Virus record (IMG/VR): IMGVR_UViG_3300020420_000009
Span: 32,001 to 96,000 of that record
Reading direction: 5' to 3' (one strand)
From: a virus
DNA length: 64,000 nt
The notes beneath the pieces are model-generated. The model was not told the origin of the DNA. It worked only from the letters and a program-made list of their open reading frames with translations, and did no database searches. Positions 1 through 32,720 of this stretch are shown piece after piece. A program made the translations under genes and the position numbers. Numbering within the stretch: position 1 is the first letter of the stretch; every line of letters begins with the position of its first letter.

Positions 1-621
1 GAACATAGGTCTCCGTTTACATATCAAACACCGACACAGGAACCTAATATTAGAGATGCAAGACAACCTGTAATATATCAACACCAACAACCAAGCACAT
101 ATGATTATCAATCACCTAATACATATGCAAGACAAGGACAGACTCCTTTCACATATACTGCAAGACAACCTGTGATATATCAGAATGTTGGTGCAAGCGC
201 ACAAGAACCAAACATTAGGTCAGGACAACAACCTTATCCATATATTGCACAGGGTAGACAACCATTTACATATAATTATAGGTCACCTTCAACATATCAG
301 AGTCCTGTAAGTGGGCAACAACCAATTAATTCAACTGGTAGAAATCCATTTCCTTATATACACCAACAACCACAACCGTATATTTACAATTCACCATATA
401 TTGCAAGACAACCATATACTACAACTAGAAATATAGGTGCTGTTGCAAAAGTTAAAGGTATATTTGTAAATAATCAAGGTGTAGTTGCAAAAGCACAAGA
501 AGTATATGTGAATGCACCTCAAGGATTAGAAAAAGTTCACCAAGCAGTTCCAAATGCACAATTCTTAAAAGGAACAGAAGGTGACGGTGGACAAACACCA
601 TATCAACCTGGCCCCGGCTAA
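1..621 (+). CDS. Pro/Tyr/Gln-rich repeat fibre protein, C-terminal part (5' end outside window)
   Basis: Frame 1 is open from base 1 (EHRSPFTYQTPTQEPNIRDARQ...). Same repeat vocabulary (QEPNIR, SPFTY, PYPYIA) as 6668-8867; ends in a VAKVKGIFVN...VYVN beta module. Confidence 0.8.
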   Translation, partial: EHRSPFTYQTPTQEPNIRDARQPVIYQHQQPSTYDYQSPNTYARQGQTPFTYTARQPVIYQNVGASAQEPNIRSGQQPYPYIAQGRQPFTYNYRSPSTYQSPVSGQQPINSTGRNPFPYIHQQPQPYIYNSPYIARQPYTTTRNIGAVAKVKGIFVNNQGVVAKAQEVYVNAPQGLEKVHQAVPNAQFLKGTEGDGGQTPYQPGPG

Positions 622-1337: not shown

Positions 1338-2774
1338 ATGGCAACAGTAATTCAGATTAAACGAAGCACAGGAGTGTCCGCCCCCGCAGTCTCAGACTTG
1401 TCGGAAGGCGAATTAGCTTATGTGCAAGATAGGTCTAATTCGGGTGCTGGAGCAAAACTTTACATAGAATCCGTAGATTCTGATAATTCAACTCCATTGA
1501 TTCATGCAATCGGTGGTAAATACTTTACTGATATTTTATCAGGTTCAACTGCAACACCAGCCAACTTTAAAGTTGGTAATAGTGCAACGCAGGGAGCTGA
1601 GATTCAGTTATTAGAAGATTCAGATAACGGTTCACATTATGTTGCATTGAAAGCACCTAACAGTGTGGCTGGAAATGTGACATTAACCTTGCCGGGCGCA
1701 GACGGTTCTAATGGACAAGTTTTGGGAACAGACGGAAGTGGAACCCTATCATTTATTTCGACAACCTCGACTCTTGCTGGTGCGTCAGACACAGATATAT
1801 CCTCACCTAGTGGTGGACATATCCTAGTCTACGATGGAAGTAATTCCTTCGACAATGTCGCAGTATCAGGAGACGCAACAATTGCATCTAACGGTGCATT
1901 AACAATAGCAAACACTGCTGTGGAAACAGCAATGATTGCAAATGACGCAGTCACACTAGACAAGATTGCAGATGCAGTTATCATTACAGAAGGAGAAGGT
2001 ATTTCTTCTAATGATGTGGACACAGGATTCCCAACAGCAGCTGCAGTTAAAGATTATGTTGATTCACAGGACACTGCTCAAGACTTGGATTTCCAAGCTG
2101 ATTCAGGTGGTGCCTTATCAATTGATTTAGACAGTGAAACCATGGTATTTGCTGGAACAGCAAATGAGATTACAACAACTGCATCAGGTAATACCGTCAC
2201 AATCGGTATGCCAGATAATGTCACTATCGCAGGAAACCTAACAGTAAGTGGAACAACTACTACAGTTAACTCTACAACAGTTAGTATTGCTGACCCAGTT
2301 TTTGAAATTGGTGACGATAGTTCAGACGACAACCTAGACAGAGGTATTAAATTCAAATACAACAGTTCAGGTGCAAAAGTTGGTTTCTTCGGTTTCGATG
2401 ATTCAACAGGTAAGTTCATAGCATTAGGAGCTGCAACAGACTCTTCTTCAACATTCTCAGGAACAGCATTAGGTGCAGTTTTTGGTGGATTAGAAGCTTC
2501 AGGTCTTGCTCTTTCAGGTTCTATTACTTCTATTGACGGGTCTGCTCCAACAGCAGGTCAGTTGTTAATTGGTCACGGTTCAAACGGTGACTTTGCAGCT
2601 GGAACCCTAACAGCAGGAGAAGGTATAGATGTGACTAATGCAGACGGTAGTATCACAATCGCAGGTGAAGATGCATCAACCTCTAATAAAGGTATAGCAA
2701 GTTTTGCAAGTGCAAACTTTACAGTGAGTAGTGGTGCAGTATCAATAACTGCTATTGACGGCGGAACATTTTAA
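1338..2774 (+). CDS. Tail fibre / long structural fibre protein
   Basis: N-terminal IQIKRS...LSEGELA fibre module, Gly/Ser/Thr-rich body, [15 protein letters not shown] module, C-terminal IDGGTF; SD AGGAG. Confidence 0.8.
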
Positions 2775-2800
2775 TTAACCGTTTATAGGAGGAAAACGAT

Positions 2801-3628
2801 ATGGCAACTCAGATACAGTTTAAGCGTTCATCAACTCAGAATGAAGTGCCCGCAACAAGTGATTTAGCACTTGGTGAAGTGGCAATCAATACCTATCATG
2901 GTAGAATGTATACAGAGAAAAATGATGGAAGTGCAGCTATAGTTCAGATTGGGTCTAACCCAACTTCACTAACTGTTAATGATGCATATTCTTTTCCAAC
3001 CGCTGACGGTTCTAGTGGTCAAGTCTTAAAAACTGACGGTTCAGGAACATTAAGTTTCGGAGCTGCAAGTAGTGGAGCTGGTATATCTATTTTTAAATAT
3101 ACTATATCTTCAAACACTACTTCGATAACTGGTAATGACGATGACGGAAACTCTCTATCCTACACAGTAGGTTCAGAGCAAGTTTACCTCAACGGTGTTA
3201 AACTGGTTGACGCAGGAACAGACTATACTGCCACAAATACATCAACCGTCACTTTGGCACAGAATGCTATAAGTGGAGATGTAGTAGAAGTTGTATCCGT
3301 GACTGCAACTGATTTAGTTCAAGGGAACTATACAGAAAGTTCATTCTCGGCAACAACTGCAAACCAAGTATTATCAGCAAACGCGGTTGCCAATAAGGCA
3401 ATCAAGTATGTGATAGTCGCAACACATGCTTCTGCAGGCACACATGCTTGTGAAGTGTTAATAGTAAACAATGGAAGTAATTCATATTTCGTTCAATACG
3501 GTGATGTGATTTCAAGTTCCAGTTTGTTTTCACTGAGTTCAGATATTAATTCAGGAAACATGAGATTACTCATTACTCCAGTTAATACAAATACTACAGT
3601 GGATACATTCCAAATCAGACTTACATAG
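2801..3628 (+). CDS. Virion structural / fibre protein
   Basis: N-terminus paralogous to the 1338 ORF (IQFKRS...LALGEVA); VYLNGVKL...DYTA...GDVVEVV domain. Confidence 0.75.
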   Translation: MATQIQFKRSSTQNEVPATSDLALGEVAINTYHGRMYTEKNDGSAAIVQIGSNPTSLTVNDAYSFPTADGSSGQVLKTDGSGTLSFGAASSGAGISIFKYTISSNTTSITGNDDDGNSLSYTVGSEQVYLNGVKLVDAGTDYTATNTSTVTLAQNAISGDVVEVVSVTATDLVQGNYTESSFSATTANQVLSANAVANKAIKYVIVATHASAGTHACEVLIVNNGSNSYFVQYGDVISSSSLFSLSSDINSGNMRLLITPVNTNTTVDTFQIRLT

Positions 3629-4152: not shown

Positions 4153-4413
4153 ATGGCAACTACAAATACTTTTGTTATTGAATACGGGATAAGTGTCGGG
4201 TCAACAGAGGTTATCAATAGCTCAGGTAAATTACAAGCGAGTGCAATCAGCACTCTAGATACGGATAATCTTTCAGAGGGTTCGACAAATCAATATTTCA
4301 CGAATGCAAGAGCAAGAGGAGCAATCTCACTTGCAAGTGGAGAAACTAATTTATCATATAATTCTTCAAATGGAGAATTGAGTTTGCCAACAGTTAATGG
4401 AGGCTCGTTCTAA
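4153..4413 (+). CDS. Small fibre-associated protein
   Basis: Shares its N-terminus and the LDTDNLSEGSTNQYFTNARAR motif with the 4413 ORF; ends in NGGSF. Confidence 0.7.
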   Translation: MATTNTFVIEYGISVGSTEVINSSGKLQASAISTLDTDNLSEGSTNQYFTNARARGAISLASGETNLSYNSSNGELSLPTVNGGSF

Positions 4414-6641
4414 TGGCAGATGTAAACTTTAAAATTAAAAATGGTCTATCCGTAGGGGATACCGAGGTATTAGACAGCTCAGGTGATTTAACTGCAGCTG
4501 CATTCGGAACTGCAGCCCTAGAAAAAATAGATGACCAAGTAAACTCTTTACTAACAGCAGGTTCAGGAATATCATTATCATATGATGATTCAGCAGGAAC
4601 ATTAACAGTCACGAGAGACGCAGAGACAGGAGACATTGAAGGAGTCACTGCTGGAGACGGACTTTCAGGTGGTGGAACAAGTGGAACAGTATCACTTGCA
4701 TTAGACCTAAACGAATTAACAGCTGCAACAGTAGATGTATCTGCCGATAGTATACCATTCATAGATGGCACTGCAACAAGAAAAGAAAGTATTTCAGATT
4801 TAGTATCAGGAATGGCTGGAACAAATTTAACTGCAAGTTCAGGAACATTAGGAATTGCAGATTCAGTTATTAGAGGAAAGATTAGTGCAAGTGGAGATTT
4901 ATCATATAACTCTTCAACTGGTGTAATATCATTTACAAATGACGCTGGTGACATAGAAAGTGTTGTTGCTGGTTCAGGTTTAACAGGCGGTGGCACATCA
5001 GGAGATGTCACACTAAATGTTATAGGTGGTGACGGTATTACTGCAAATGCAAACGATATTGCATTATCTTCATCAGTTGCAGGCGACAATCTTTCATATA
5101 GTTCAGGTGTCCTAGCAGTAGAACAAAATTTAACAAATTCTTCTGCACCATATTATCATAGGTCAATAGTCACCGTATCAAGTGGTAAATTCTTATTTGA
5201 CGGTCAATCGTCCTCACAAGCTTTAAGACTAACACCAAATGTAGTCTATAGATTTGACCAATCAGATAGTTCAAACGGTTCACACCCATTAAGATTCTCT
5301 GAATCAGCAGACGGTTCAGAAATGACAGACGGTTATTTAATCTATAACAAAGTTGGAACTCCAGGCTCTAGTGGTTCATATACAGAAGTTGCATTCGACC
5401 AAGAATCAAACAATCCTATGTATTTCTACTGTTCAAATCACAGTGGAATGGGTAATACAGTTATACTTGGTGGTGCAGAGAATACAGATTCATTAGACGA
5501 AGGTTCGAGTAATCTTTATCATACCACTGCAAGAGCAAGAGCAGCTATAAGTGCTGGTGGTGACTTATCATACAACAGCACAACTGGTGTAATGAGTTTC
5601 ACAAACGATGCTGGAGACATATCATCAGTCGTTGCTGGAGACGGTTTAACAGGTGGTGGAACAACAGGAGATGTCACACTTGCAGTTCAAGTAGATGATA
5701 GTTCTATAGAAACAGATTCAGATACATTAAGAGTAAAAGCAAGTGGTATAACAAATGCCATGTTAGCAGGTTCGATTGCAAATGATAAACTTGCTGGTTC
5801 GATTGCAAACGCAAAACTTGCAAATAGTTCTATAACTCTAAACTCTAATACAGTTGCATTAGGTAATTCACTTACATTAGATACAGACGATATCGGTGAG
5901 GGTTCAAGTGCCCAATATCATACAACAGAAAGAGTTCAAGATGTAGTTGGAGCTCAGATTGCAACTAATGGTTCACATACAAATATTACTGCAAGTTATG
6001 ACGACGCTGGAGACGGTGCAGTCGACTTATCAATCACAGATGCAGTAATCAGAGGTAAAATATCTGTCACAGATTCAGGTGGAGACGGTTCACTTGCATA
6101 TAATAACTCTACTGGTGTAATAACATATACTGGCCCAAGTGCTTCAGAAGTAAGAGCTCACATAAGTGCTGGAACTGGTGTAGGATTCTCAGGTGGTGCA
6201 GTTAGTATTGGACAGGCAGTTGGAACAAGTGATAATGTGACCTTTAACAATTTGGTTGTAGGTGGAAACCTAACAGTCAGTGGAACTACTTCAACAGTTA
6301 GTTCTACAAATACAACAATTTCAGATGCACTTATAGAATTAGGAAATGGAACATCAGGTTCTCCTTCAAATGACGCAGGTTTGGTTATTGAAAGAGGAAG
6401 TTCAGATAATGTGTTTATAGGTTGGGACGAAAGTGCAGACGCAATCACATTCGGAACAGGTTCATTTACTGGTGCTTCAACAGGTAATTTAACAATTACC
6501 CCAAGTGCAGTTAACACTGGTGCAGTCACAATTACAAATGCAACAAATAATGGTGGAACTGCAAGAAACATATATCAGTCAACCTCTGCACCTAGTGGTT
6601 CAGACGGAGCAGTTGGTGATTTATGGATTCTATACTCCTAA
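4413..6641 (+). CDS. Tail fibre protein with internal cupredoxin-like domain
   Basis: Repeated GDIxSVVAGxGLTGGGTSGDVTL units; YRFDQSDSSN.HPLRFS...YFYCSNHSGMG module; C-terminal APSGSDGAVGDLW fibre motif. Confidence 0.8.
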   Translation: MADVNFKIKNGLSVGDTEVLDSSGDLTAAAFGTAALEKIDDQVNSLLTAGSGISLSYDDSAGTLTVTRDAETGDIEGVTAGDGLSGGGTSGTVSLALDLNELTAATVDVSADSIPFIDGTATRKESISDLVSGMAGTNLTASSGTLGIADSVIRGKISASGDLSYNSSTGVISFTNDAGDIESVVAGSGLTGGGTSGDVTLNVIGGDGITANANDIALSSSVAGDNLSYSSGVLAVEQNLTNSSAPYYHRSIVTVSSGKFLFDGQSSSQALRLTPNVVYRFDQSDSSNGSHPLRFSESADGSEMTDGYLIYNKVGTPGSSGSYTEVAFDQESNNPMYFYCSNHSGMGNTVILGGAENTDSLDEGSSNLYHTTARARAAISAGGDLSYNSTTGVMSFTNDAGDISSVVAGDGLTGGGTTGDVTLAVQVDDSSIETDSDTLRVKASGITNAMLAGSIANDKLAGSIANAKLANSSITLNSNTVALGNSLTLDTDDIGEGSSAQYHTTERVQDVVGAQIATNGSHTNITASYDDAGDGAVDLSITDAVIRGKISVTDSGGDGSLAYNNSTGVITYTGPSASEVRAHISAGTGVGFSGGAVSIGQAVGTSDNVTFNNLVVGGNLTVSGTTSTVSSTNTTISDALIELGNGTSGSPSNDAGLVIERGSSDNVFIGWDESADAITFGTGSFTGASTGNLTITPSAVNTGAVTITNATNNGGTARNIYQSTSAPSGSDGAVGDLWILYS

Positions 6642-6667
6642 TAAATAGGAGACATACAGGATAATTT

Positions 6668-8071
6668 ATGGCGTCAGGTTCACAGAAAGTTAAAACCCCA
6701 TCAGGTTGGAATGCAACTCAAGGTGCATGGGTCAAGACAGGCCCGTCTACTTGGAAAGCAGTTGACCAAATTTATATTAAAGCTCCAGGCGGGTGGAATA
6801 ATGCTTCAGGTCAAGAGGCAGTGCAACAACCTTATCCATATATTGCACAGGGTGGTTCTCCATATATTGCAAATGCACAGAACCCATATCCCTATATTGC
6901 AAATGCACAGGAACCAAACATTAGGTCAGCACAACAACCTTATCCTTACATTGCAGACGGTGGGTCACCTTATATTGCAAATGGACAGGAACCTAATATT
7001 AGAAACCAACAGGAACCAAATATTCGTTCTGCACAGCAACCGTATCCATATATTGCAAATGCACAGGAACCTAATATAAGAAACAGACAAAATCCGTTTA
7101 CATACGACCATAGGTCACCTTTTACATATAATCACAGAAGTCCTTTTACATATGACCATAGGTCACCTTTTACATATCGTAATCCGTTTACTTACAATCA
7201 TAGGTCACCATTTACATATAACTATAGGTCACCGTTTACATACAGAAGTCCTGTGAGTGCTCAGGAACCTAATATTAGGAATGGACAGAACCCATTTACA
7301 TATCCAGCAAATATTCAACAACCGAATATTCGTTCTGCACAACAACCGTTTACATATCCAGCAAATATTCAACAACCAAATATTAGGAGTGCTCAACAAC
7401 CGTTCACATATCCTGCGAATATTCAGCAACCTAATATAAGAGACGCTAGGACACCGTTTACCTATCATGCAAGACAGCCGGGCAGTGCAAGACAACCAGT
7501 TCCTTTCTCATATCAAAGTCCATATATCGGAACTGCAAGACAACCAGTTTACTACCCAGGCGGTGGTTCACCAGGCTTCGGTGGTGGTTGTTTCGCAATG
7601 GGAACTATGATATGGATGAGCGACAATACATACAGACCAATCGAAACTATAGAAATTGGAATGTCAGTAATGACATTCGGAGAATCAATAGAGGTTGGAG
7701 TGGTCGAAGAACTTATGCAGCCTAGAGTGTGTGGGTTATACGATATAGAAGTCAACGGTAAAATTACTGGTGTGACTGGAGGACACCCATTCTTAGTTCA
7801 AGATAAAGGGTGGTGTGTTATAAACATGGAAGACTGGGAGCAAGAAGTTGCTGACGGTGTTGCTTGGGGTGGAGAAGTCTCAGGTGTAATTGAAGAGGGT
7901 GATATCCTTGTAGATTCATTATCATTGATTTTAAATAATCAATCGAATGCAAAGGTATCTAATATTAACAAATTGGAAGGAGAACATGAGGTCTATCACT
8001 TGGCTCGTGTAAGTGATAATGCGAACTTCTTTGCAAATGACTTTGTAGTCCATAACTTACAGAAGAGATAA
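6668..8071 (+). CDS. Fibre-associated repeat protein with C-terminal Hint (intein-like/BIL) domain
   Basis: Trp-rich N-terminal module, 29 Pro-delimited repeats, then GGG|CFAMGT...VTGGHPF...VYHL...NFFANDFVVHN. Confidence 0.85.
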   Translation: MASGSQKVKTPSGWNATQGAWVKTGPSTWKAVDQIYIKAPGGWNNASGQEAVQQPYPYIAQGGSPYIANAQNPYPYIANAQEPNIRSAQQPYPYIADGGSPYIANGQEPNIRNQQEPNIRSAQQPYPYIANAQEPNIRNRQNPFTYDHRSPFTYNHRSPFTYDHRSPFTYRNPFTYNHRSPFTYNYRSPFTYRSPVSAQEPNIRNGQNPFTYPANIQQPNIRSAQQPFTYPANIQQPNIRSAQQPFTYPANIQQPNIRDARTPFTYHARQPGSARQPVPFSYQSPYIGTARQPVYYPGGGSPGFGGGCFAMGTMIWMSDNTYRPIETIEIGMSVMTFGESIEVGVVEELMQPRVCGLYDIEVNGKITGVTGGHPFLVQDKGWCVINMEDWEQEVADGVAWGGEVSGVIEEGDILVDSLSLILNNQSNAKVSNINKLEGEHEVYHLARVSDNANFFANDFVVHNLQKR

Positions 8072-8804
8072 TATGCCATTTTATCAAAGTGTATATGCAA
8101 CTCAAGCAAGACAACCAGTTCCTGCGAGTTATCAGAGCCCATACGGAACTCAGAATCCTTACATTGCAAATGCAAGACAACCGTTTACCTATAATTATAG
8201 GTCACCGTTTACATATCAAGCACCTGCTAGAAACCCTTTCACTTATCATTATAGGTCACCCTTTACATATCAAGCACCCGCTAGAAACCCTTTCACCTAT
8301 AATTACAGGTCACCATTCACCTATCAGGCACCTGCGAGACAGCCTTTTACTTATCACTATAGGTCACCGTTCACTTATAGAAATCCAGTATCAGCACAAG
8401 AACCAAATATCAGGTCAGCACAACAACCGAATATTAGAGATGCACAATCACCAAGTAATGCACAACAACCTACTATTAAGTCAGCACAAGAACCAAACAT
8501 TAGGTCAGCACAGGAACCTAATATTAGGGACGCAAGACAACCTTCTACATATGATTATCGTTCACCTTCAACATACGAAAGACAGGGTCAAACACCTTTC
8601 ACATATGACCATAGGTCACCTTTAACATATTCACATAGAAGTCCGTTTACATATAGTAATCAGAACCCTACAACTTATGCAAGACAGGGTCAGACACCAT
8701 TTACTTACAACTATAGAAGTCCTTCGACATATGCAAGACAAGGTCAGACACCTACTACATACAGTAATCAAAACCCGACTACTTATGCAAGACAAGGTAG
8801 AACA
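6830..8804 (+). repeat. Imperfect tandem coding repeats (18/24/30-nt units) in two adjacent ORFs
   Basis: Recurrent aggtcaccNtttacatat and caggaaccNaatattag DNA units encoding PFTYxxRS, PNIRxAQx and PYPYIA; interrupted by the Hint domain. Confidence 0.85.
7589..8056 (+). other. Hint auto-processing domain, no C-extein nucleophile
   Basis: Cys1 (TGT 7589), TxxH block (TGGH), terminal His-Asn (8051-8056) followed by Leu-Gln-Lys-Arg-stop. Confidence 0.85.
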
Positions 8805-8867
8805 CCAGTTATTAGGTGGGACGGAGTCTTACAACAACAATGGCCTGGAACACCGATATCTAGTTAA
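8073..8867 (+). CDS. Repeat protein, mirror partner of the 6668 ORF
   Basis: Starts 1 nt after the upstream stop; almost entirely Pro-delimited repeats. Confidence 0.85.
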   Translation: MPFYQSVYATQARQPVPASYQSPYGTQNPYIANARQPFTYNYRSPFTYQAPARNPFTYHYRSPFTYQAPARNPFTYNYRSPFTYQAPARQPFTYHYRSPFTYRNPVSAQEPNIRSAQQPNIRDAQSPSNAQQPTIKSAQEPNIRSAQEPNIRDARQPSTYDYRSPSTYERQGQTPFTYDHRSPLTYSHRSPFTYSNQNPTTYARQGQTPFTYNYRSPSTYARQGQTPTTYSNQNPTTYARQGRTPVIRWDGVLQQQWPGTPISS

Positions 8868-8894
8868 TTTTAGTCAACTAAATACATTTATATT

Positions 8895-10556
8895 ATGGAT
8901 ACTTTTGAATATATACAAACCCTAGACCGAGCAAAAGAGTTATTCAAACCCTATACTTCTTATGAGGATATGCCTACAAAGCAAGTTCAATTAGGTCAAC
9001 TCCCTGTTCCAAAACATAGAAAAGATACAGACGAAACAGAAGAAGTGTGGAGATACATTATAGATGAATGTATGCCTCCAATTAGATTAGTCACTTGGAA
9101 AGATATAAAACCTTTAATGGATAGTAAAGAGATTATGTCATGGGGTGGATTAGACCACAACGCATATCAATACTTAAATTATCTACATAAAGGTTGGACA
9201 GAAGAAAATAGACCCGACCACCCTCTCAAAGGTGGTTCTATGGATTATATGAATGCAGACGGTGAATACGAATGTCTTACTCAACCTACAATAAAAACAG
9301 CTTATGATAGGATAAAGTTTGCAGACAAATATGGATATGTAGAAGGAACTCAAGAATATGAAGACTTAATGAATGGAGTTATAGATATAACTCTTGATTC
9401 TGAAAAAGAAAATACAATATGTTCTATTTACTATCACGCTGCAAAAGCTCATTGGTTAATAAATGATATACAAAAGAATGGTCTCTGGCAACCTATTCAA
9501 GGTCTTACACACTACACAGGAAATCCAGGCGGTAAACATTCTTTATCTATACACCCTGGCTCAATGAGAAGTAGGTCTTTTCAATCAATGGATTATCCCG
9601 ATAATACTTGTCTTGTCACTGATTATAGTAATTGTTTTCCTAATCACCCTCGTTTAAGTATGGAAAATATAAGAGATTATTGGTTCTCTCTAATACCTAA
9701 AGAGGGTAGAAATGTAAATGCAATTTATACAGACCAAAGAAAAATAGAGTTTAGTCCCTCTTTAGTTCAAGGTGGTGGAACTGATTTTAGAAAATATGTT
9801 TATGCATATAATAAGAAAGTGACAAAGTTATGTAAAAAGAAACCTTTAAACATATACATTGGTTATGATTCTTCTCACGATAATATTATACATGAAGTTT
9901 GTGAAAAGTCAATACATGATAGCATAGAAAGGTCAAAAAGTAAAGGCGCAGGAGCGGATTACTTTAACGATTTTGAAATAGAAACTAAATTACTTGACAT
10001 AAGCAAAATAAAAGATTATAATAGAGACTATGCAAATCAATCTACTGAATTTACATATAGTAGATTTTTAATTCCATATCTAGAAAACTATGAGGGGTTT
10101 AGTATCTTTATAGATAATGATTACATATGGAAGAGAACTCCTTTACCATTTTTCTATTTTCTTGACCCCGACCATGCTGTTGCTTGTGTGCAATATGATT
10201 TTGAACACCATGACAGTGTAAAAATGGGTGGAGAAGTAAATATATCATATCCTAAAAAACTATGGTCTAGTATGATGATATTTAATAATGGACACGAAGA
10301 TTGTAAAAAGTTAACACCCGAAGTTGTTAATAATCAGTCAGGTAAATATTTACATCAGTTTGAATGGACAGATAAAATTAGTAAAATACCTCATGGAAAA
10401 ATTGCAACAGAAGGATTTGAAACAGAATGTCTTGATTCACACCATGCAGTCCATTATACAAGGGGTGGGCCATGGATAAAAGGCATGGATTGTTCAAACA
10501 TAAATATGTTAGAACAATTTTATAAAGTGAAAAGCACCTTGCCAACAAACAAATAA
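8895..10556 (+). CDS. Glycosyltransferase (GT-A fold C-terminal domain) fused to an unknown N-terminal domain
   Basis: NIYIGYD...STEFTYSRFLIPYL...FIDND (DxD)...WSSMMIFN...HYTRGGPW. Confidence 0.8.
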   Translation: MDTFEYIQTLDRAKELFKPYTSYEDMPTKQVQLGQLPVPKHRKDTDETEEVWRYIIDECMPPIRLVTWKDIKPLMDSKEIMSWGGLDHNAYQYLNYLHKGWTEENRPDHPLKGGSMDYMNADGEYECLTQPTIKTAYDRIKFADKYGYVEGTQEYEDLMNGVIDITLDSEKENTICSIYYHAAKAHWLINDIQKNGLWQPIQGLTHYTGNPGGKHSLSIHPGSMRSRSFQSMDYPDNTCLVTDYSNCFPNHPRLSMENIRDYWFSLIPKEGRNVNAIYTDQRKIEFSPSLVQGGGTDFRKYVYAYNKKVTKLCKKKPLNIYIGYDSSHDNIIHEVCEKSIHDSIERSKSKGAGADYFNDFEIETKLLDISKIKDYNRDYANQSTEFTYSRFLIPYLENYEGFSIFIDNDYIWKRTPLPFFYFLDPDHAVACVQYDFEHHDSVKMGGEVNISYPKKLWSSMMIFNNGHEDCKKLTPEVVNNQSGKYLHQFEWTDKISKIPHGKIATEGFETECLDSHHAVHYTRGGPWIKGMDCSNINMLEQFYKVKSTLPTNK

Positions 10557-10577
10557 TATGGTATACTGGAGATTATT

Positions 10578-11153
10578 ATGAATGCATTAACTTATTGTGA
10601 GTTTGGAAATCTACAAATTAGAAAACCAAACGGATTAGAATATCGATTTGAAAATGTCGATAAGCCTGAATTAGGTTTTGATTATGAGGTTTTAATATAC
10701 GACCAAATAGAAGTCAAAGTATTAAAATGGGAAGAAGGAAAACCTTTAGAAGAACAGGAAACATTACCTTTATCTGAGACAGATAGAGATAGTATTGAAA
10801 AATATATTTCAAATTCAGAACCACCTATGGGTGTAAATTTGAATAATCAATTTATCGGTGAAATTAATAGAGCTGCACGAGAGAATATACAATTACAATC
10901 ACAGAAACATGGTTTTGATGATTTCTTTGAATGTATATATGCTGGAAGAGAAGGTTCTGCTCACCCTTATAGGTCAGACGCAAGACGAGTATTAGAATAT
11001 GCAGATGCAACTAATAATGTTCTTGACGGTCTTTTCAGAGAAATATCTGTCACTAGAGAAGATACTTTAAAACCTATAGAAGAATATCTTTTGGCTTTAC
11101 CTACTCCCTCAAATTTGAAGGACGGAGGATTTAATGCCGAACATAAACTTTGA
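10578..11153 (+). CDS. Hypothetical protein, possible tail-fibre assembly chaperone
   Basis: C-terminal QKHGFDD...YRSDARRVLEYAD...LLALP resembles fibre assembly proteins; located next to fibre genes. Confidence 0.45.
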   Translation: MNALTYCEFGNLQIRKPNGLEYRFENVDKPELGFDYEVLIYDQIEVKVLKWEEGKPLEEQETLPLSETDRDSIEKYISNSEPPMGVNLNNQFIGEINRAARENIQLQSQKHGFDDFFECIYAGREGSAHPYRSDARRVLEYADATNNVLDGLFREISVTREDTLKPIEEYLLALPTPSNLKDGGFNAEHKL

Positions 11154-11871
11154 TTCAATCGAACAGGTTGATTTAGACTCACCTTTTTATATTACCGAGG
11201 CACCTCTTGGTAATAAAATATATGTAATAGACAATTATCTTGATTCGTCTCTACACCATGCAATAGACCAATACCTAAATCACTCTACCTCATGGTTAAA
11301 AGGTAATGAGGTTAGTGGTGGAAAGGGAAGAGGTGGATTACCTAATCACCAACTATGGGGAGCTTCATATTTTAGAGGAAGAGATATTGGTGACGGCAGA
11401 AAAGAAAAAGTTATATGTGAATCTCATAGACATGGTATCCCTCATTTAATGAATTGGTTTGATAGAAAGATTAGAACAGATTTTGGTTTTGAATGGGTTA
11501 GGTTTCAGTATATGGGAACTAATTCACAAACACATGGTTTAGACGGAAGTAGTCATTCAGATTGTAGTCCTCATGATAATTATAATCTCTCTTTTTTATA
11601 TTACACTAATACCTTTTGGAATGATAATTGGGGTGGTGATTTGAGATTTTACGATAGACATGTTCCTACAGGTGCAAGAGAATTAATGAACAAATATGAA
11701 ATAGGAAGAGTTGCATTCAAACCAAATAGGTTATTAATGTTTGACGGAAGAATAGAACATGGTGCAGAATCCCCTTCTAAAGAAGCAAGATATATAGATA
11801 GGAAGTCTATCGTTTTGAGAGGAGACGAGATTAGACTATTAGACGAGAAACAAAGATATGCCAACTGTTGA
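11134..11871 (+). CDS. 2OG-Fe(II) oxygenase (prolyl hydroxylase-like)
   Basis: HSD...LYY...WGGDLRF...PNRLLMFDGRIEHG...RKSIV. Confidence 0.85.
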   Translation: MPNINFDSIEQVDLDSPFYITEAPLGNKIYVIDNYLDSSLHHAIDQYLNHSTSWLKGNEVSGGKGRGGLPNHQLWGASYFRGRDIGDGRKEKVICESHRHGIPHLMNWFDRKIRTDFGFEWVRFQYMGTNSQTHGLDGSSHSDCSPHDNYNLSFLYYTNTFWNDNWGGDLRFYDRHVPTGARELMNKYEIGRVAFKPNRLLMFDGRIEHGAESPSKEARYIDRKSIVLRGDEIRLLDEKQRYANC

Positions 11872-12802
11872 ATTTAGAACATATAATCCCGAAGCTTTTC
11901 AAAGATTTAAACCAGTCGTTGCAAAAAGTTATATGCCAGAATGGTGGAAGACTGCAAAGATTAAAATAGACCATAGAGGTTTAGCTGCTCAAACTATAAG
12001 GTCTTGTCCAGCAATGGACGATTATTTAAAAACTGGTTGGTATATTATTACTGCATGTGACATTCCTGTTATGAATGGTGAAACTTGGGATTGGCCAGAC
12101 GGTGGAGAAAGTTTTACAACAAGAGTAGAAAACTTAGACGGAACTGATAATTTACAATATTCTCCAACTCACCCAGCTGCACAGTTTCAAGATTCATTTG
12201 AATATATGGGTGACGAAGGGCCTGTAAAAGATGCATTCAAAATGGGAAATTTTTGGAACATAACTACACCTCCAGGCTATTCAGTTTTTTTCATAGACCC
12301 ATTCTTATTTCAAAATAAATTTTTTGCAGTATGGCAAGGTATAATTGATACAGATACTTTTAACTTAGGTATGGATAACGCACAAATTATTTTTTATCCA
12401 AAGGTAAATCATTCTTTTGTGATACCAAAAGGAACTCCTATATTACAAATAGTTCCTTTTAAAAGAGACGAGTGGAAGTCAACATTTATATACGGTAAAT
12501 CTAAAGATTGGTATAACACACATGGTGTAGTAGAAGAGTCAATGCAAAAATGGCAAAAGGATTTTGGTTTACAAGACCCTTATACAGGACAAACTGTGCC
12601 AGTCGAAGATAGATTAAATATCGGTGGATATAGAAAGGCTGGGTTTAAAAGTAATAAAGCTACTTTATATAATGAAGGTGACAATCCACCACCTGAATGT
12701 CCTATGCATAGAAAAGAAGAGGTTCAGTTGGAAATGGATTTTAAAGAAAAACAAAGAAGTATGACAGACTTAAATTGGGACGGACATGAAGAAAGGGATT
12801 AG
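11858..12802 (+). CDS. Conserved phage protein usually found in oxygenase clusters (DUF6065-like)
   Basis: TIRSCPAMDDYL.GW...WNITTPPGYS...GIIDTD...IPKGTPILQIVPFKR. Confidence 0.6.
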   Translation: MPTVEFRTYNPEAFQRFKPVVAKSYMPEWWKTAKIKIDHRGLAAQTIRSCPAMDDYLKTGWYIITACDIPVMNGETWDWPDGGESFTTRVENLDGTDNLQYSPTHPAAQFQDSFEYMGDEGPVKDAFKMGNFWNITTPPGYSVFFIDPFLFQNKFFAVWQGIIDTDTFNLGMDNAQIIFYPKVNHSFVIPKGTPILQIVPFKRDEWKSTFIYGKSKDWYNTHGVVEESMQKWQKDFGLQDPYTGQTVPVEDRLNIGGYRKAGFKSNKATLYNEGDNPPPECPMHRKEEVQLEMDFKEKQRSMTDLNWDGHEERD

Positions 12803-13475
12803 ATTATTATTTCCAACCATTGTATACGAGGAGAACCTTGTAGAAAGTGGAAGGATTACAGCAGAACATTGTGGTATTTTAAAAGATGCAATAGACGGAA
12901 TGAGAAAGAATGACCCAGTAGGTCGACAAATATCAAATGCATATACAGGTTGGCAATCTAATGACGGTTGTGAATCCAACCCAGCTTTTAGTAAGTTAAT
13001 GAGAATATTGAGAGATATTTTTAATAATGAAATAGGTGGGTTCCATGGTATTGATAGAGGAAGAGTTCAGATATCTGTAGGTAATTGTTGGGCAAATGTA
13101 AATGACCACCTTGCATGGAATAGACCTCATTTACATAATGGTTGTTGGTATAGTGGTGCTTTTTATGTGCATTCAGAAGGAGACGAAGGTTCATTTATTG
13201 CAGTTAATACAGACCCCAAAGTTGTAGCTGATTATCCCCCTAACGCAAGGTCAATAGAGAGTTGGGAAGTAAAACCAGTGACAGGTAGTTTAATTTTGTT
13301 TCCGAGTGCTATGATGCATATGGTTGAACCTAATAGAACACATAAAGATAGATACTCTATTTCATTTAATGTGAATACAGATAGGATAGGACACCAAAGA
13401 GAACACCAAGTTAAAAGAATAGATGAAGATTGGAACTTATTTAATTTAGACGAAGATTTTGAATTGACTAAGTAA
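12786..13475 (+). CDS. 2OG-Fe(II) oxygenase (TIGR02466-like)
   Basis: LFPT...WANVN...HLH...SGAFYV...LILFPS.M.HMVEPN...RYSISFN. Confidence 0.85.
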   Translation: MKKGIRLLFPTIVYEENLVESGRITAEHCGILKDAIDGMRKNDPVGRQISNAYTGWQSNDGCESNPAFSKLMRILRDIFNNEIGGFHGIDRGRVQISVGNCWANVNDHLAWNRPHLHNGCWYSGAFYVHSEGDEGSFIAVNTDPKVVADYPPNARSIESWEVKPVTGSLILFPSAMMHMVEPNRTHKDRYSISFNVNTDRIGHQREHQVKRIDEDWNLFNLDEDFELTK

Positions 13476-30176: not shown

Positions 30177-31582
30177 TTCTCAAGAAGATTGACGAAGTCT
30201 TCATGCAAGTTCAATGTGATGACGGTCTGGCAAGAGACCTCTTCGATTTCTTTTCGTTTACAGTTCCTAATGCAAAGTTTATGCCTTCGGTAAAGAATAG
30301 GTATTGGGACGGTAAGGTTCGTCTATTCTCAATCAAAACAAATAAAATTTACATAGGATTACTTCCATATGTAGACGAGTTTTGTAGAGAAAGAGGATAT
30401 GATATTATAGGTATAAATGATATCATTGGTAATAAAGAGAGACAACCTAACGAAGAGTTTATAGAAGAATTAGGTTTACCTTTTGAACCTAGAGATTATC
30501 AATTAGAAGCATTCAGAACTGCTGTGCAATACGGCAGACAACTATTACTCTCACCAACTGCAAGTGGTAAGTCACTTATCATTTATTTACTTGCAAGATA
30601 TTACAACAAGAAAACTGTTATAATTGTTCCTACAACTTCATTAGTAGAACAAATGACAAAGGATTTTAAAGATTATGGATATGATAAAAAGATTTGTAAA
30701 ATTTATTCGGGTCAGCCTGTATTTGATTCGGACATTACGATTACGACATGGCAGTCATTTAGTAAGGCTCCTAAGAATGTCTTGGAATCTTTCGAGGTCG
30801 TCTTCGGGGACGAAGCCCACCTCTTCAAGGCAACAGTCCTCAAAGGAATCCTTGAAAAAATGAAAAAGACTGCAATTAGATTTGGGACTACTGGAACTTT
30901 AGACGGTTCAGAGTGTCATAGATTGCAACTTGAAGGTATGTTTGGCCCAGTCAAAAAGGTCATAAGCACAAAACAATTAATGGACGAAGGAACAATTGCA
31001 AATTTATCCATAGATTGTGTCATACTAAGTCACACCAAACAAAAGAAATTGTCATACCAAGAAGAAATGGATTACCTTGTTTCTAATGATGCAAGAAATA
31101 TGTTTATTGTAAATCTTGTTAGAAGTCTAAAAGGTAATACTTTATGTTTATTTCAATATGTAGAAAAACATGGTGCAAAATTATTTGATATAATGTCTAA
31201 TACAGACATGGGTGGTAATTTACATTATGTGTATGGTGGAACAGACACAGAGGACAGAGAAGCTGTTAGAGAGATTGTAGAGAATAATAAGGACGATACT
31301 ATCCTTGCATCATATGGAACCTTCTCTACAGGTGTGAATATTAAAAGAATAGACAATATAGTATTTGCAAGTCCTTCTAAATCTAAGATACGGAACCTAC
31401 AATCGATTGGTAGGGGTCTTCGTAAGGTAGAAGGTAAAAGTAAAATGAGATTGTTTGACATTGCAGACGATTTGCAATATGATAATTATACTCTTGGTCA
31501 CCTCAAAGACCGTATAAATATATACAACGAGGAAAGATTCCAATATGAAATCAAACAATTCGAATTAAATGACAACACCTAA
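30161..31582 (+). CDS. uvsW: DNA helicase UvsW
   Basis: WDGKVRLF...SPTASGKS...GDEAH...GTTGT...LQSIGRGLR. Confidence 0.95.
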   Translation: MASEIILKKIDEVFMQVQCDDGLARDLFDFFSFTVPNAKFMPSVKNRYWDGKVRLFSIKTNKIYIGLLPYVDEFCRERGYDIIGINDIIGNKERQPNEEFIEELGLPFEPRDYQLEAFRTAVQYGRQLLLSPTASGKSLIIYLLARYYNKKTVIIVPTTSLVEQMTKDFKDYGYDKKICKIYSGQPVFDSDITITTWQSFSKAPKNVLESFEVVFGDEAHLFKATVLKGILEKMKKTAIRFGTTGTLDGSECHRLQLEGMFGPVKKVISTKQLMDEGTIANLSIDCVILSHTKQKKLSYQEEMDYLVSNDARNMFIVNLVRSLKGNTLCLFQYVEKHGAKLFDIMSNTDMGGNLHYVYGGTDTEDREAVREIVENNKDDTILASYGTFSTGVNIKRIDNIVFASPSKSKIRNLQSIGRGLRKVEGKSKMRLFDIADDLQYDNYTLGHLKDRINIYNEERFQYEIKQFELNDNT

Positions 31583-32093
31583 AGACTTAATACCACAAAG
31601 ATACGAAGTTCTAAAATTAAGAACTGGTTCTGAAATTGTTGGAATGGTTAGAGACACAGAACAAGGTGTCGAAATAACCTTACCTATGATTTGTCAATTA
31701 GAAGTCGTTCCCGATAAAAGTGCAACTCTTGCTACTTTTTACCCATACTCACCTTTGAGTTCTGACCCAACAGTTCAAATACCTTATGATTTAATTGCAC
31801 ATAGAAATACTATGAATGACCAGTTTGTAAATTTCTATGACGAGGCAAGTTCAAAATGGTTTGACATGGTTGAGAATAAAAAGATACCATTGGTGACGAA
31901 TCCTAAAACAGCTCATAGAGATTATATCAAAAGAGTCGTTGACGAATTAATGAATGCAACAGGTGGCCCAATCACAGAAAGAGAAGAAAGAATGTTGAGA
32001 AGGATTGAAGAAGAAGAATGGAACATAGACGATGAAGTCTTTGCAGATTTTGAATCTTCGATAGTTCCAACAGATAAGAAGAAAATTCATTAG
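31569..32093 (+). CDS. Conserved hypothetical protein (Sm-like N-terminus)
   Basis: VLKLRTGSEIVG motif, similar to the 60743 ORF. Confidence 0.65.
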   Translation: MTTPKDLIPQRYEVLKLRTGSEIVGMVRDTEQGVEITLPMICQLEVVPDKSATLATFYPYSPLSSDPTVQIPYDLIAHRNTMNDQFVNFYDEASSKWFDMVENKKIPLVTNPKTAHRDYIKRVVDELMNATGGPITEREERMLRRIEEEEWNIDDEVFADFESSIVPTDKKKIH

Positions 32094-32179
32094 ACTTTTA
32101 AATTACCTATATACTAACGATAATTTATGGTTATAACCAATCATAAGTCTTCTTTATAAAACAAATTAAGGAAAAATCC

Positions 32180-32350
32180 ATGACCACAGCAATTACTGAG
32201 ATTGCGAAGAGCATGGTGGTGAAAATCGAAACCATTATTGAGACAAAGATTATATCAATGTTGATAGAAGCATTAGAATTTCTAACACTATTGACTCTTC
32301 CCATATTACTACCTTTTGGCATAATGATACTGTCAGGCTGGAGTATATAA
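32180..32350 (+). CDS. Small membrane protein (56 aa)
   Basis: MTTAITEIAK...EFLTLLTLPILLPFGIMILSGWSI read manually; AAGGA SD. Confidence 0.6.
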   Translation: MTTAITEIAKSMVVKIETIIETKIISMLIEALEFLTLLTLPILLPFGIMILSGWSI

Positions 32351-32451
32351 TGTCGAAAGAACAGAAAGATAAGATAAGAGATAACCTCGAACTCACAGCG
32401 TTGGTGGCTATCTTTTGTCTATCTATCTTAGGAGTTTCACCAGCAATATGA
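32350..32451 (+). CDS. Small membrane peptide (33 aa)
   Basis: MSKEQKDKIRDNLELTALVAIFCLSILGVSPAI; TAATG overlap, GGAG SD. Confidence 0.55.
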   Translation: MSKEQKDKIRDNLELTALVAIFCLSILGVSPAI

Positions 32452-32720
32452 TTAATCCTGACCCGTGGAAAAGAGAATCACTCCCTTCAGCAGTAGACGA
32501 TGCAGCCGATGTGATAAGTAGATATCCACAACAACTAGAAATACAATTAAACAAAACAGTGGACGCAACTCCCGAAGAATTTGAAGAATGGCAAGAGAAA
32601 GAACTAAAATGGTGGGCAGACAGACAATTCCCTATAGTGTGGATTGCATGTTTCGTTCAACTCTCTGCATTGGGAATGATGGCTGCAGTAATGTTGTTCA
32701 ACCAATCGGCGTTCGGATAA
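32448..32720 (+). CDS. Small membrane protein (90 aa)
   Basis: ATGA overlap; C-terminal hydrophobic helix. Confidence 0.65.
   Translation: MINPDPWKRESLPSAVDDAADVISRYPQQLEIQLNKTVDATPEEFEEWQEKELKWWADRQFPIVWIACFVQLSALGMMAAVMLFNQSAFG

What the first reader, a model, noticed from the sequence alone, without database searches (positions are those of the whole stretch)
6668..8867. Two proteins with exactly mirrored, complementary repeat series: a peptide-zipper fibre
Seen: splitting at Pro-initiated units, protein A (6668) has 29 units with lengths 10,8,10,8,10,8,8,8,10,8,8,8,8,6,8,8,6,6,8,10,8,10,8,10,8,8,6,8,8. Protein B (8073) has 29 units (the first starts with Val rather than Pro) with the exact reverse series, 238 aa each. 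Unit types pair consistently: PNIRxxQx opposite PxTYxxRS (in both directions), PYPYIAxxxx opposite PxTYxRQGxT, PYIANxQx opposite PxTYSNQN, PFTYPANIQQ opposite PFTYQAPARN, and PVSAQE opposite PFTYR(S/N). The DNA is not an inverted repeat, so the symmetry must be selected at protein level. Inference: A and B zip into a long antiparallel two-stranded ribbon with a base-pair-like unit code (about 80 nm if fully extended), attached through A's Trp-rich N-terminus to the 4413 fibre. I know of no description of this architecture.
Basis: partly seen in the sequence, partly recalled or inferred. Interest (0 to 1): 0.93.

Follow-up and report, generated by a model that had tools for sequence, protein, structure and literature searches.

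The report
Mirror-coded two-protein phage fibre shaft
Two neighbouring genes of an uncultured marine T4-like phage encode repeat proteins whose unit series are exact mirror images with a strict unit-to-unit pairing code, which points to a two-chain antiparallel fibre shaft of a kind I could not find described.

Summary
Protein A (6668-8071) and protein B (8073-8867) each hold 29 Pro-started units (238 aa), and B's length series is the exact reverse of A's.

- **Conservation.** All 57 distinct homologous pairs tested against shuffles beat the direct orientation and every shuffle. In 66 of 72 family-1 pairs, A's shaft is exactly as long as all of B. These 66 pairs show 51 different architectures of 22-70 units, so gains and losses co-vary.
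- **Pairing code.** Tyr-type 8-mers always face Ile-type 8-mers and never their own type. A finer sub-code is also strict.
- **Not a DNA effect.** DNA complementarity in the mirror register is at background.
- **Independent support.** A second fibre family in the same genome follows the rule, both as split gene pairs and as single chains whose two halves are mirror-complementary. The rule also predicted a GTG start in one relative.
- **Variable tip.** A's C-terminus is a variable module. In this window it is an intein-like (BIL-type) Hint domain with no +1 nucleophile.

Best reading: A and B pair antiparallel, in register, as a tail-fibre shaft. The geometry, oligomer state and attachment point are untested, and structure prediction was uninformative. 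Other first-reader notes of this scan cover this same stretch of the same genome.

The parts
6668..8071 (+). Gene A, 467 aa: head, outgoing shaft arm, Gly linker, Hint/BIL domain, 4-residue C-flank
   Evidence: ORF. Conserved as the first gene of the pair in 80 loci.
6668..6829 (+). A head, residues 1-54, Trp-rich. Many positions are invariant across 44 relatives. Residues 35-54 lie opposite B's 20-residue tail in the mirror register.
   Evidence: Invariant columns. The offset K minus length of B is 34 or 35 in 66 of 72 pairs.
6830..7561 (+). A shaft arm: 29 Pro-started units of 6/8/10 aa (residues 55-292) plus the closing 6-mer PVYYPG (residues 293-298), which lies opposite B's MPFYQS
7562..7588 (+). 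Gly-rich linker GGSPGFGGG ending in the Gly that precedes the Hint nucleophile
   Evidence: In the 19 of 21 Hint-bearing relatives where the script found the CF/CV junction, the residue before Cys1 is Gly.
7589..8056 (+). Hint / bacterial-intein-like domain, residues 308-463: Cys1, TGGH block, terminal His-Asn
   Evidence: Pfam Intein_splicing E 2.9e-6, below the curated cut-off. A profile of 10 relatives hits PDB BIL domain 2lwy at 2.8e-14. AF2 model pLDDT 87.9. Best Foldseek hits are BIL2 6tmm (TM 0.75/0.83) and 2lwy.
8057..8071 (+). C-flank LQKR and stop codon. The +1 residue is Leu, so there is no splicing nucleophile.
8073..8867 (+). Gene B, 264 aa, the returning shaft arm. It starts 1 nt after A's stop, in another frame.
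   Evidence: It is the second gene of the pair in all complete loci.
8073..8804 (+). B shaft arm: MPFYQS plus 29 units (residues 7-244) in the exact reverse order of A's series, with complementary unit types
8805..8864 (+). B tail PVIRWDGVLQQQWPGTPISS. R248, W249, D250, W257 and P258 are invariant.
4413..6641 (+). Upstream fibre/adaptor protein (742 aa) ending ..GDLWILYS. It lies directly before A in all 7 loci printed.
   Evidence: PHROG tail-fibre hit 8.1e-13. Synteny. A physical link to A is inferred only.
1..621 (+). 3' end of a single-chain paralogue (531 aa; genome 31026-32621). Its N-half residues 39-158 are mirror-complementary to residues 327-445.
8895..10556 (+). Conserved 553-aa gene that follows B in all 7 loci printed. 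Function unknown. Listed as context, not shown to act on A or B.
   Evidence: PHROG 28018 (unknown function) 8.7e-39. No Pfam or PDB sequence hit.

Best explanation
A and B are the two arms of one fibre shaft in the host-recognition region of a marine T4-like myovirus.

**Model.** A runs outward from a conserved 34-residue head. B is translated from the gene that starts 1 nt after A's stop and runs back antiparallel to A. Every 6-, 8- or 10-residue unit of A lies against a unit of B of the same length and of the complementary type:
- Tyr-type P.TY.. units face Ile-type PNIR or PYIA units.
- PYPYIA.... faces P.TY.RQG.T.
- PFTYRN faces PV.AQ..

B's last 20 residues return to A's head, so B's length equals the shaft length.

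**Geometry (inferred).** Almost all Pro-to-Pro spacings are even, which keeps a two-residue alternation in phase along the whole shaft. That fits extended beta-strand pairing, probably bundled further as in other phage fibres.

**Distal end.** This is A's C-terminus and B's N-terminus, and it carries an exchangeable module. In this window the module is a BIL-type Hint domain. It would form a thioester at the Gly-Cys junction and then cleave itself off or transfer the shaft's C-terminal Gly to an amine.

**Shown:** the mirror rule, the pairing code, their co-variation, the absence of a DNA basis, and the Hint fold and motifs.
**Inferred:** physical pairing, strand geometry, oligomer state, virion location and Hint chemistry.
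For: 1. **Window pair.** The series is an exact mirror of 29 units. Pro coincidences are 32 in mirror orientation, 19 direct, and at most 20 in shuffles.
2. **Family 1, first set.** The set came from 80 loci plus the window. L014, L042 and L053 were dropped because an ORF was incomplete or missing, and identical pairs were merged. That leaves 57 distinct pairs. All 57 exceed their best direct offset and the maximum of 200 unit-shuffles.
3. **Family 1, full set.** With 15 further pairs, the mirror offset minus the length of B is 34 or 35 in 66 of 72 pairs. B ranges from 202 to 562 aa. At that single offset a median of 0.90 of B's Pro positions coincide (range 0.69-0.96).
4. **Co-variation.** Among those 66 pairs there are 51 distinct architectures of 22-70 units. 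The nearest relative, L001 (92% and 89% identity), has 32 units with a different series that is again mirrored.
5. **Unit code.** This covers 1955 unit pairs in 51 pairs:
   - Tyr-type 8-mer against PNIR or PYIA 8-mer: 832
   - PYPYIA 10-mer against P.TY.RQG.T: 289
   - Tyr-type 6-mer against other 6-mer: 597
   - Tyr 8-mer against Tyr 8-mer: 0
   - PNIR against PNIR: 0
6. **Finer code**. Tyr units ending QHRS, NHRS, SHRS, DHRS or NYRS face P.I[RK] in 230, 127, 70, 61 and 50 cases, and face PYIA in none. Units ending QNRQ, NARY or QNRS face PYIA in 173, 72 and 48 cases, and face P.I[RK] in none.
7. **No nucleic-acid basis.** Complementarity in register is 0.23-0.28 in 7 pairs, and at most 0.38 at any of 61 shifts. 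Only short inverted repeats are present.
8. **Second family** (head MADEIYIN). 17 of 18 split pairs exceed their shuffle maximum. A pairing matrix learned only from family 1 was applied to the single-chain forms. The window genome's own 531-aa paralogue scores 80.3, against a null of 24.5 +/- 3.8 and 13.8 in direct orientation. Of 8 further single chains, 7 score far above their null with 0-1 gaps over 103-157 residues.
9. **Prediction fulfilled.** In L015 the rule requires B to start about 90 codons upstream of its first ATG. A GTG preceded by AGGAG lies there. Using it gives the N-terminus seen in relatives and restores offset 34 with a normal short A tail.
10. **Parity.** 99.3% of 5964 Pro-to-next-Pro spacings are even.
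11. **Variable distal end.** Of 72 A tails, 34 are short, 21 are Hint domains and 17 are another domain of about 150 aa. In the 5 loci with that other domain whose A-B gap was translated, a small extra ORF lies between A and B.
12. **Context.** Tail-fibre PHROG hits lie upstream, and neck, sheath and portal genes lie downstream. This position matches the 'host recognition cluster' between VrlC and gp14 described for pelagimyophages (PMC7029224, passages read).
Against: - No experiment or confident structural model shows contact between A and B.
- Six of 72 pairs (L018, L019, L033, L041, L047, L049) have arms that differ by 8, 18, 44 or 88 aa. The 44- and 88-aa cases are copy-number differences of a 132-nt super-repeat whose copies are 76-85% alike. 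I cannot tell misassembly from real, tolerated mismatches.
- By the blind parser only 7 of 57 series are exactly equal. Most of the others differ at 1-2 boundaries where one partner lacks a Pro near the tip. Several have local 10,8 against 8,10 swaps (L009, L012, L026, L034, L040, L057, L067), so the register tolerates slips of 2 residues.
- The pairs are phylogenetically related, so the counts are not independent events.
- Mutual information between facing residues is high at several shifts: 1.59 bits at -1, 1.30 at +1 and 1.03 at 0. The residue-level register is therefore not fixed.
- The ESM Atlas's own low-confidence model of B alone (pLDDT 0.53) resembles a parallel beta-helix.
- One single-chain relative (L087) and one family-2 pair (L110) do not exceed their nulls.
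Confidence: 0.75

Rival explanations
1. A and B fold separately, for example each as a beta-solenoid or a homotrimeric fibre. The mirror order arises because both line up in opposite directions along a third component, or are joined tip to tip, without direct unit-to-unit contact.
For: The ESM Atlas's own model of B alone, at low confidence, aligns to parallel beta-helix proteins (TM by query 0.60). Eight-residue periods also occur in known triple beta-helices (recalled). No model of A with B was obtained.
Against: A third 'ruler' would have to co-vary with 51 architectures. The upstream fibre protein varies from 540 to 742 aa among the seven loci printed, without tracking shaft length. The code is complementary, never like with like, and holds down to sub-types; alignment to a common template does not predict that. 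Single-chain forms place both arms in one polypeptide. The even-spacing rule is not expected of solenoid turns.
Confidence: 0.12
2. The mirror is kept at nucleic-acid level, for example by an ancient inverted duplication maintained by gene conversion, or by an mRNA or DNA structure. The protein pairing code would be a by-product.
For: Individual units are short DNA palindromes, for example the 16-nt palindromes in B found by the repeat finder. The gene pair flanks its own centre, as the arms of a hairpin would.
Against: Arm-to-arm complementarity in register is 0.23-0.28, and at most 0.38 at any of 61 shifts, in 7 pairs. No long inverted repeat is present. Facing units encode different peptides, so reverse-complement descent cannot give the observed code. 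Close relatives differ by several unit changes that are mirrored without DNA similarity between the arms.
Confidence: 0.04
3. Chance or parsing artefact in low-complexity sequence.
For: An 8-residue period alone gives many coincidences (direct orientation 19).
Against: The test using all Pro positions without merging beats every one of 200 shuffles in 57 of 57 pairs. There are about 1e10 orderings for the window's composition (my arithmetic). The rule predicted a start codon.
Confidence: 0.01

Closest known systems
Needle domain of the T4 long tail fibre tip (gp37)
   Same: It is a fibre segment at the distal, receptor-binding end of a T4-like phage fibre. As I recall from Bartual et al. 2010 (not read here), each chain runs out to the tip and returns, so outgoing and returning strands must match in length. 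PMC6957217 (passages read) describes the needle domain with seven iron atoms held by His residues of the three subunits of the trimer.
   Different: gp37 is one chain, is short, and is held by His-x-His iron sites. There is no sequence similarity here (no Pfam or PHROG hit for A's shaft or B) and no His-x-His motif in A or B (read). In this window the two directions are two genes. The shaft is 22-70 units long, with a Pro-punctuated unit code and a mirror rule that co-varies.
Bacterial intein-like (BIL) domains of the Hint superfamily
   Same: A's residues 308-463 have Cys1, a T..H block and a terminal His-Asn, with no C/S/T at +1. The domain sits in a variable, non-conserved protein, as reviewed for A-type BIL domains (PMC7765530, passages read). 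The best sequence and fold matches are BIL domains. The best fold match, Tetrahymena BIL2, joins its N-flank to a Lys through an isopeptide bond (PMC8616854, passage read).
   Different: It lies in a phage fibre protein, at the turning point of a two-chain shaft and 4 residues from the C-terminus. It is optional: 21 of 72 relatives carry it. Its activity is untested.
Triple-stranded beta-helix with octapeptide repeats (T4 gp5 needle; recalled, not read here)
   Same: A fibrous phage tail protein with a period of 8 residues.
   Different: gp5 is a parallel homotrimer with a Val/Gly pattern. Here there are two different chains in opposite directions, units of 6, 8 and 10 residues, Pro at unit starts, and complementary unit types.
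Heterodimeric coiled coils and other register-coded peptide pairs (analogy only, recalled)
   Same: Partner choice and register are set by a repeating residue code.
   Different: No heptads and no helix-forming composition. Pro occurs every 6-10 residues and the 2-residue parity points to extended strands.

Membership tests
Hint superfamily, BIL type (A's residues 308-463) | N-terminal Cys/Ser nucleophile preceded by the flank | tested here: met
   Gly-Cys-Phe is invariant in 10 of 10 aligned domains.
Hint superfamily, BIL type (A's residues 308-463) | Block B Thr-x-x-His | tested here: met
   His and Pro are invariant. TGGH is present in 6 of 10, including the window, and SGGH in 1. The other 3 read [ST]DDH or TEDH.
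Hint superfamily, BIL type (A's residues 308-463) | C-terminal His-Asn | tested here: met
   VHN is present in 9 of 10 aligned domains and in 20 of 21 Hint-bearing tails. L055 lacks it.
Hint superfamily, BIL type (A's residues 308-463) | Hint fold | tested here: met
   AF2 model pLDDT 87.9, pTM 0.85. Foldseek top hits are BIL2 6tmm (TM 0.75/0.83), 2lwy and mini-inteins. Profile against PDB gives 2lwy at E 2.8e-14. The Pfam hit for the window protein alone is below the curated cut-off (27.6 against 35.8 bits).
Canonical intein | Cys/Ser/Thr at +1 of the C-extein, needed for splicing | tested here: not met
   The +1 residue is L, M, R, I, Y, G, F or A in the 20 tails with a terminal His-Asn, and never C, S or T.
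Canonical intein | Insertion in a conserved site of a conserved host protein | tested here: not met
   It sits in a Gly-rich tail 4-29 residues from the C-terminus of a hypervariable fibre protein, and is absent from 51 of 72 relatives.
Hint superfamily, BIL type (A's residues 308-463) | Autocleavage or transfer activity | not testable with these tools
   Needs expression and mass spectrometry.
T4 gp37-like fibre tip | Sequence homology and His-x-His iron sites | tested here: not met
   No Pfam or PHROG family for A's shaft or B. No His-x-His in either sequence.
Collagen-like triple helix | Gly at every third residue | tested here: not met
   The units are 6, 8 or 10 aa starting with Pro, and Gly is rare in the shaft.
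Right-handed parallel beta-helix | Single chain forming stacked coils | tested here: inconclusive
   The only support is the Atlas's own model at pLDDT 0.53. My AF2 model of a single-chain relative had pLDDT about 30 over the repeats.
Phage tail fibre (functional class) | Encoded in the tail-fibre / host-recognition module and present in the virion | tested here: inconclusive
   The position is met: it lies between fibre-like genes with PHROG tail-fibre hits and the neck protein gene. Presence in the virion was not testable.

The most novel reading that the evidence does not exclude
A natural, sequence-programmable peptide duplex. Two polypeptides recognise each other unit by unit through a small alphabet of complementary 6-, 8- and 10-residue 'letters', and antiparallel pairing sets both register and fibre length. 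Phages evolve fibre length by matched insertions in both arms. In some lineages a BIL domain uses its Gly thioester to close the hairpin covalently, by joining A's C-terminus to an amine at the tip.
Probability: 0.35. Interest if true: 0.95.

Novelty: categorically new. Interest (0 to 1): 0.9.

Why it matters
If A and B really pair unit by unit, this is a fibrous-protein design principle distinct from coiled coils, collagen and the known phage beta-helices. It would be a hetero-duplex whose register, partner choice and length are written in a short repeat code, and more than 50 natural 'designs' are already available for testing.

- It would make co-evolution of two chains by matched insertions and deletions directly testable.
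- It would explain how abundant marine myoviruses vary fibre length and swap receptor-binding tips as one contiguous DNA segment, because A's 3' end and B's 5' end are adjacent.
- It could offer building blocks for programmable protein nanofibres.
- The BIL domain at the turning point would be the only Hint domain in a phage fibre that I am aware of, and a candidate for enzyme-free ligation. My one search on BIL/Hint domains and tail fibres listed no paper whose title or abstract start describes one.

The function class, a tail fibre, is ordinary. The architecture is not.

Tried and rejected
**Structure prediction of the complex.** A residues 1-307 with B, each given with an alignment of 43-44 rows. 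The tool returned no verdict (score 0.00, partner pLDDT under 50). I do not count this for or against binding.

**AF2 on a single-chain relative.** L084, 491 aa, with a 9-row alignment. Mean pLDDT was 35 and the repeats were unmodelled. Only an N-terminal strand (residues 4-9) and a C-terminal beta domain (residues 447-480) reached pLDDT 60-70. That would fit the chain ends meeting, but I could not inspect contacts, so I do not use it.

**ESM Atlas**. No hit by features. The only structural similarity was of a low-confidence model to beta-helices.

**GenBank phage records.** Megablast of 6000-10600, and tblastn of A, A's head, B and the single-chain paralogue, all found no match.

**Family libraries.** Pfam and PHROGs gave nothing for A's shaft, for B, or for the alternative tip domain of about 150 aa.

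**The 553-aa downstream protein.** No Pfam or PDB sequence hit. Its resemblance to family-8 glycosyltransferases is only a recalled motif.

**Self-mirror of the 531-aa paralogue at one ungapped offset.** Not significant (10 against a null mean of 9.4). The gapped alignment with the pairing matrix was needed.

**A and B as one gene split by a spliced intein or a frameshift.** Rejected. B is in another frame with its own ATG, the +1 residue is never a nucleophile, and relatives without the Hint domain still have two genes with overlapping stop and start.

**Literature.** Five searches found no description of mirrored repeat fibres. Supplements were not seen, and subscription journals are not covered.
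Full report
**What is in the window.** The window is part of a 129.7-kb virus record of a T4-like myovirus. It carries sheath, portal, scaffold and gp46-like genes, and neck and gp15 genes. The nearest cultured relatives by portal protein are Pelagibacter phage Mosig and Methylophilales phage Melnitz, at 57% identity. The finding lies among fibre-like genes upstream of the neck gene. This region corresponds to the 'host recognition cluster' described for pelagimyophages (PMC7029224, passages read).

Gene A (6668-8071, 467 aa) is followed 1 nt after its stop by gene B (8073-8867, 264 aa), which is in another frame.

**Check of the observation.** A's residues 55-292 and B's residues 7-244 each split into 29 Pro-started units totalling 238 aa, and B's length series is the exact reverse of A's. 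Three further tests agree:
- Using every Pro with no merging, 32 of B's 36 Pro positions coincide with Pro positions of A at a single mirror offset. The best direct offset gives 19 and 200 unit-shuffles give at most 20.
- The DNA of the two arms is not complementary. Complementarity in register is 0.266, the mean over shifts is 0.251 and the maximum is 0.333. Only 14-17-nt inverted repeats are present.

**Relatives.** A scan of viral contigs gave 80 loci, all with the same gene order. After dropping L014, L042 and L053 (incomplete ORFs) and merging identical pairs, 57 distinct pairs remained. Every one exceeds both its best direct offset and the maximum of 200 shuffles. A second scan added 15 more family-1 pairs.

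In 66 of 72 pairs the mirror offset minus the length of B is 34 or 35. This means A is a 34-residue head, then a shaft exactly as long as the whole of B, then a tail. B ranges from 202 to 562 aa.

The 66 pairs have 51 different architectures of 22-70 units, so unit gains and losses in one protein are matched in the other. The closest relative, L001, has 32 units in a different series, and that series is also mirrored.

**Exceptions.** Six pairs have arms that differ by 8, 18, 44 or 88 aa. The larger differences are copy-number changes of a 132-nt super-repeat. In L027 that repeat is present 5.4 times in each gene, at 76-85% identity between copies. I cannot tell whether these are real mismatches or misassemblies. 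Local 10,8 against 8,10 swaps also occur.

**The pairing code.** Over 1955 facing unit pairs in 51 pairs:

| Facing units | Count |
|---|---|
| Tyr-type 8-mer (P.TY....) against PNIR or PYIA 8-mer | 832 |
| PYPYIA.... against P.TY.RQG.T | 289 |
| Tyr-type 6-mer against other 6-mer | 597 |
| Tyr 8-mer against Tyr 8-mer | 0 |
| PNIR against PNIR | 0 |

A sub-code is equally strict. Tyr units with His, Tyr or Phe at position 6 (..QHRS..NHRS..DHRS..NYRS) face only P.I[RK] units. Those with Asn or Ala there (..QNRQ..NARY..QNRS) face only PYIA units. The code works in both directions, with either type in A or in B.

99.3% of 5964 Pro-to-next-Pro spacings are even. This keeps a two-residue alternation in phase along the shaft, which I read as a sign of extended beta-strand pairing. 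That reading is an inference.

**Independent tests.**
1. It is a 531-aa single-chain protein of a second family, with head MADEIYIN. I built a pairing matrix only from family-1 A/B pairs and aligned the protein's N-half against its reversed C-half. Residues 39-158 align to residues 327-445 with one gap and a score of 80.3. Unit-shuffles give 24.5 +/- 3.8, and the direct orientation gives 13.8.
2. Seven of 8 other single-chain relatives behave the same way.
3. The same family also exists as split gene pairs, and 17 of 18 of them exceed their shuffle maximum.
4. Fused and split forms of one fibre are what a hairpin topology predicts.
5. In L015 the rule required B to be about 90 residues longer than its ATG-called ORF. 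A GTG with an AGGAG motif upstream lies at that place. Using it gives the N-terminus seen in relatives and restores offset 34.

**The turning point.** After the shaft, A's tail falls into three classes among the 72 pairs:
- a short Gly/Pro tail (34);
- a Hint domain (21);
- an unrelated domain of about 150 aa with no Pfam match in the 5 examples scanned (17).

In the 5 loci with that other domain whose A-B gap was translated, a small extra ORF of about 85-100 aa lies between A and B. So the end where A stops and B starts carries exchangeable modules, as a distal fibre tip would.

**The Hint domain.** In the window the module is a Hint domain (residues 308-463). It has an invariant Gly-Cys-Phe, a TGGH block and a terminal VHN. 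A profile of the domain hits the C. thermocellum BIL domain at 2.8e-14. The AF2 model has pLDDT 87.9, and its best fold matches are Tetrahymena BIL2 and the same BIL domain.

The residue after His-Asn is never Cys, Ser or Thr in the 20 tails that have a terminal His-Asn. It is therefore not a canonical intein, and it fits A-type BIL domains as reviewed in PMC7765530. BIL2 is reported to join its N-flank to a Lys by an isopeptide bond (PMC8616854). Whether A's Gly307 is released or ligated is open.

**Best explanation and rivals.** I put 0.75 on A and B pairing antiparallel and in register as a fibre shaft. The rivals are:
- separate folding with alignment to a third component (0.12);
- a nucleic-acid-level cause (0.04);
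- chance or a parsing artefact (0.01).

The last rests only on conserved synteny with a protein that ends ..GDLWILYS.

**Comparison with what is known.** No Pfam or PHROG family covers the shaft. All 120 listed relatives of B are unnamed or 'hypothetical' metagenome proteins. No GenBank phage record matched (the low-complexity filter is a caveat). Five literature searches found no description.

The nearest structural idea is the T4 gp37 needle, where one chain runs out and back (topology recalled; iron sites read). It shares no sequence, motif or two-gene layout with A and B.

I rate the architecture categorically new, while the function class (a tail fibre) is ordinary. The structure predictions were uninformative and are reported only under what was tried.

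Noticed in passing
window 1-621 (genome record 31026-32621; L082:11026-12621): A single-chain paralogue (531 aa) of a second mirror-repeat fibre family. It follows an adaptor protein that ends ..VGHLWLVV. Its two halves are mirror-complementary over about 120 residues.
   Followed up: yes
L083-L160: The second family (head MADEIYIN) occurs both as one fused gene (443-531 aa) and as two adjacent genes (for example 404 + 271 aa). The N- and C-terminal ends are the same in both forms, which indicates gene fission or fusion at the fibre tip.
   Followed up: partly
L020, L039, L060, L065, L073, between A and B: In the five loci with a C-terminal domain of about 150 aa on A whose A-B gap I translated, a small ORF of about 85-100 aa sits in the 283-331-nt gap before B. 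It may be a tip adhesin or an assembly chaperone. The tip domains have no Pfam match.
   Followed up: partly
L015:6650 (also L016, L102, L103, L108): B starts at a GTG preceded by AGGAG, about 90 codons upstream of the first ATG. An ATG-only gene call truncates it.
   Followed up: yes
window 8895-10556, 11134-11871, 12786-13475: A conserved 553-aa gene of unknown function follows B, and two 2OG-Fe(II) oxygenase genes lie just downstream (Pfam E 6.2e-8 and 2.5e-17). Modification of the Pro/Tyr-rich fibres, such as hydroxylation or glycosylation, is conceivable but untested. The glycosyltransferase resemblance of the 553-aa protein is only a recalled motif.
   Followed up: partly
window 8179-8310: Single Tyr-type units are encoded by near-perfect 16-nt DNA palindromes (ACCTATAATTATAGGT and variants). 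Arg-Ser is written either AGG TCA or AGA AGT. I have no explanation. It does not create arm-to-arm complementarity.
   Followed up: partly
L027:960-1666 and 2769-3485: Both genes contain a 132-nt (44-aa) super-repeat, 5.4 copies in each. Relatives L019, L033 and L018 differ by one or two copies in one gene only.
   Followed up: partly
window 8057-8068 and relatives: Most C-flanks after the Hint domain contain a Lys within 2-6 residues of the end (LQKR, RQQK, ISTK, MFKK, GYYGKH). Many Hint-less tails also end in ..QQK or ..QIK. This Lys is a candidate acceptor if the BIL domain makes an isopeptide.
   Followed up: no
L084 model: In the otherwise unconfident AF2 model of a single-chain relative, only the N-terminal strand (residues 4-9) and a C-terminal beta domain (residues 447-480) reach pLDDT 60-70.
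   Followed up: no
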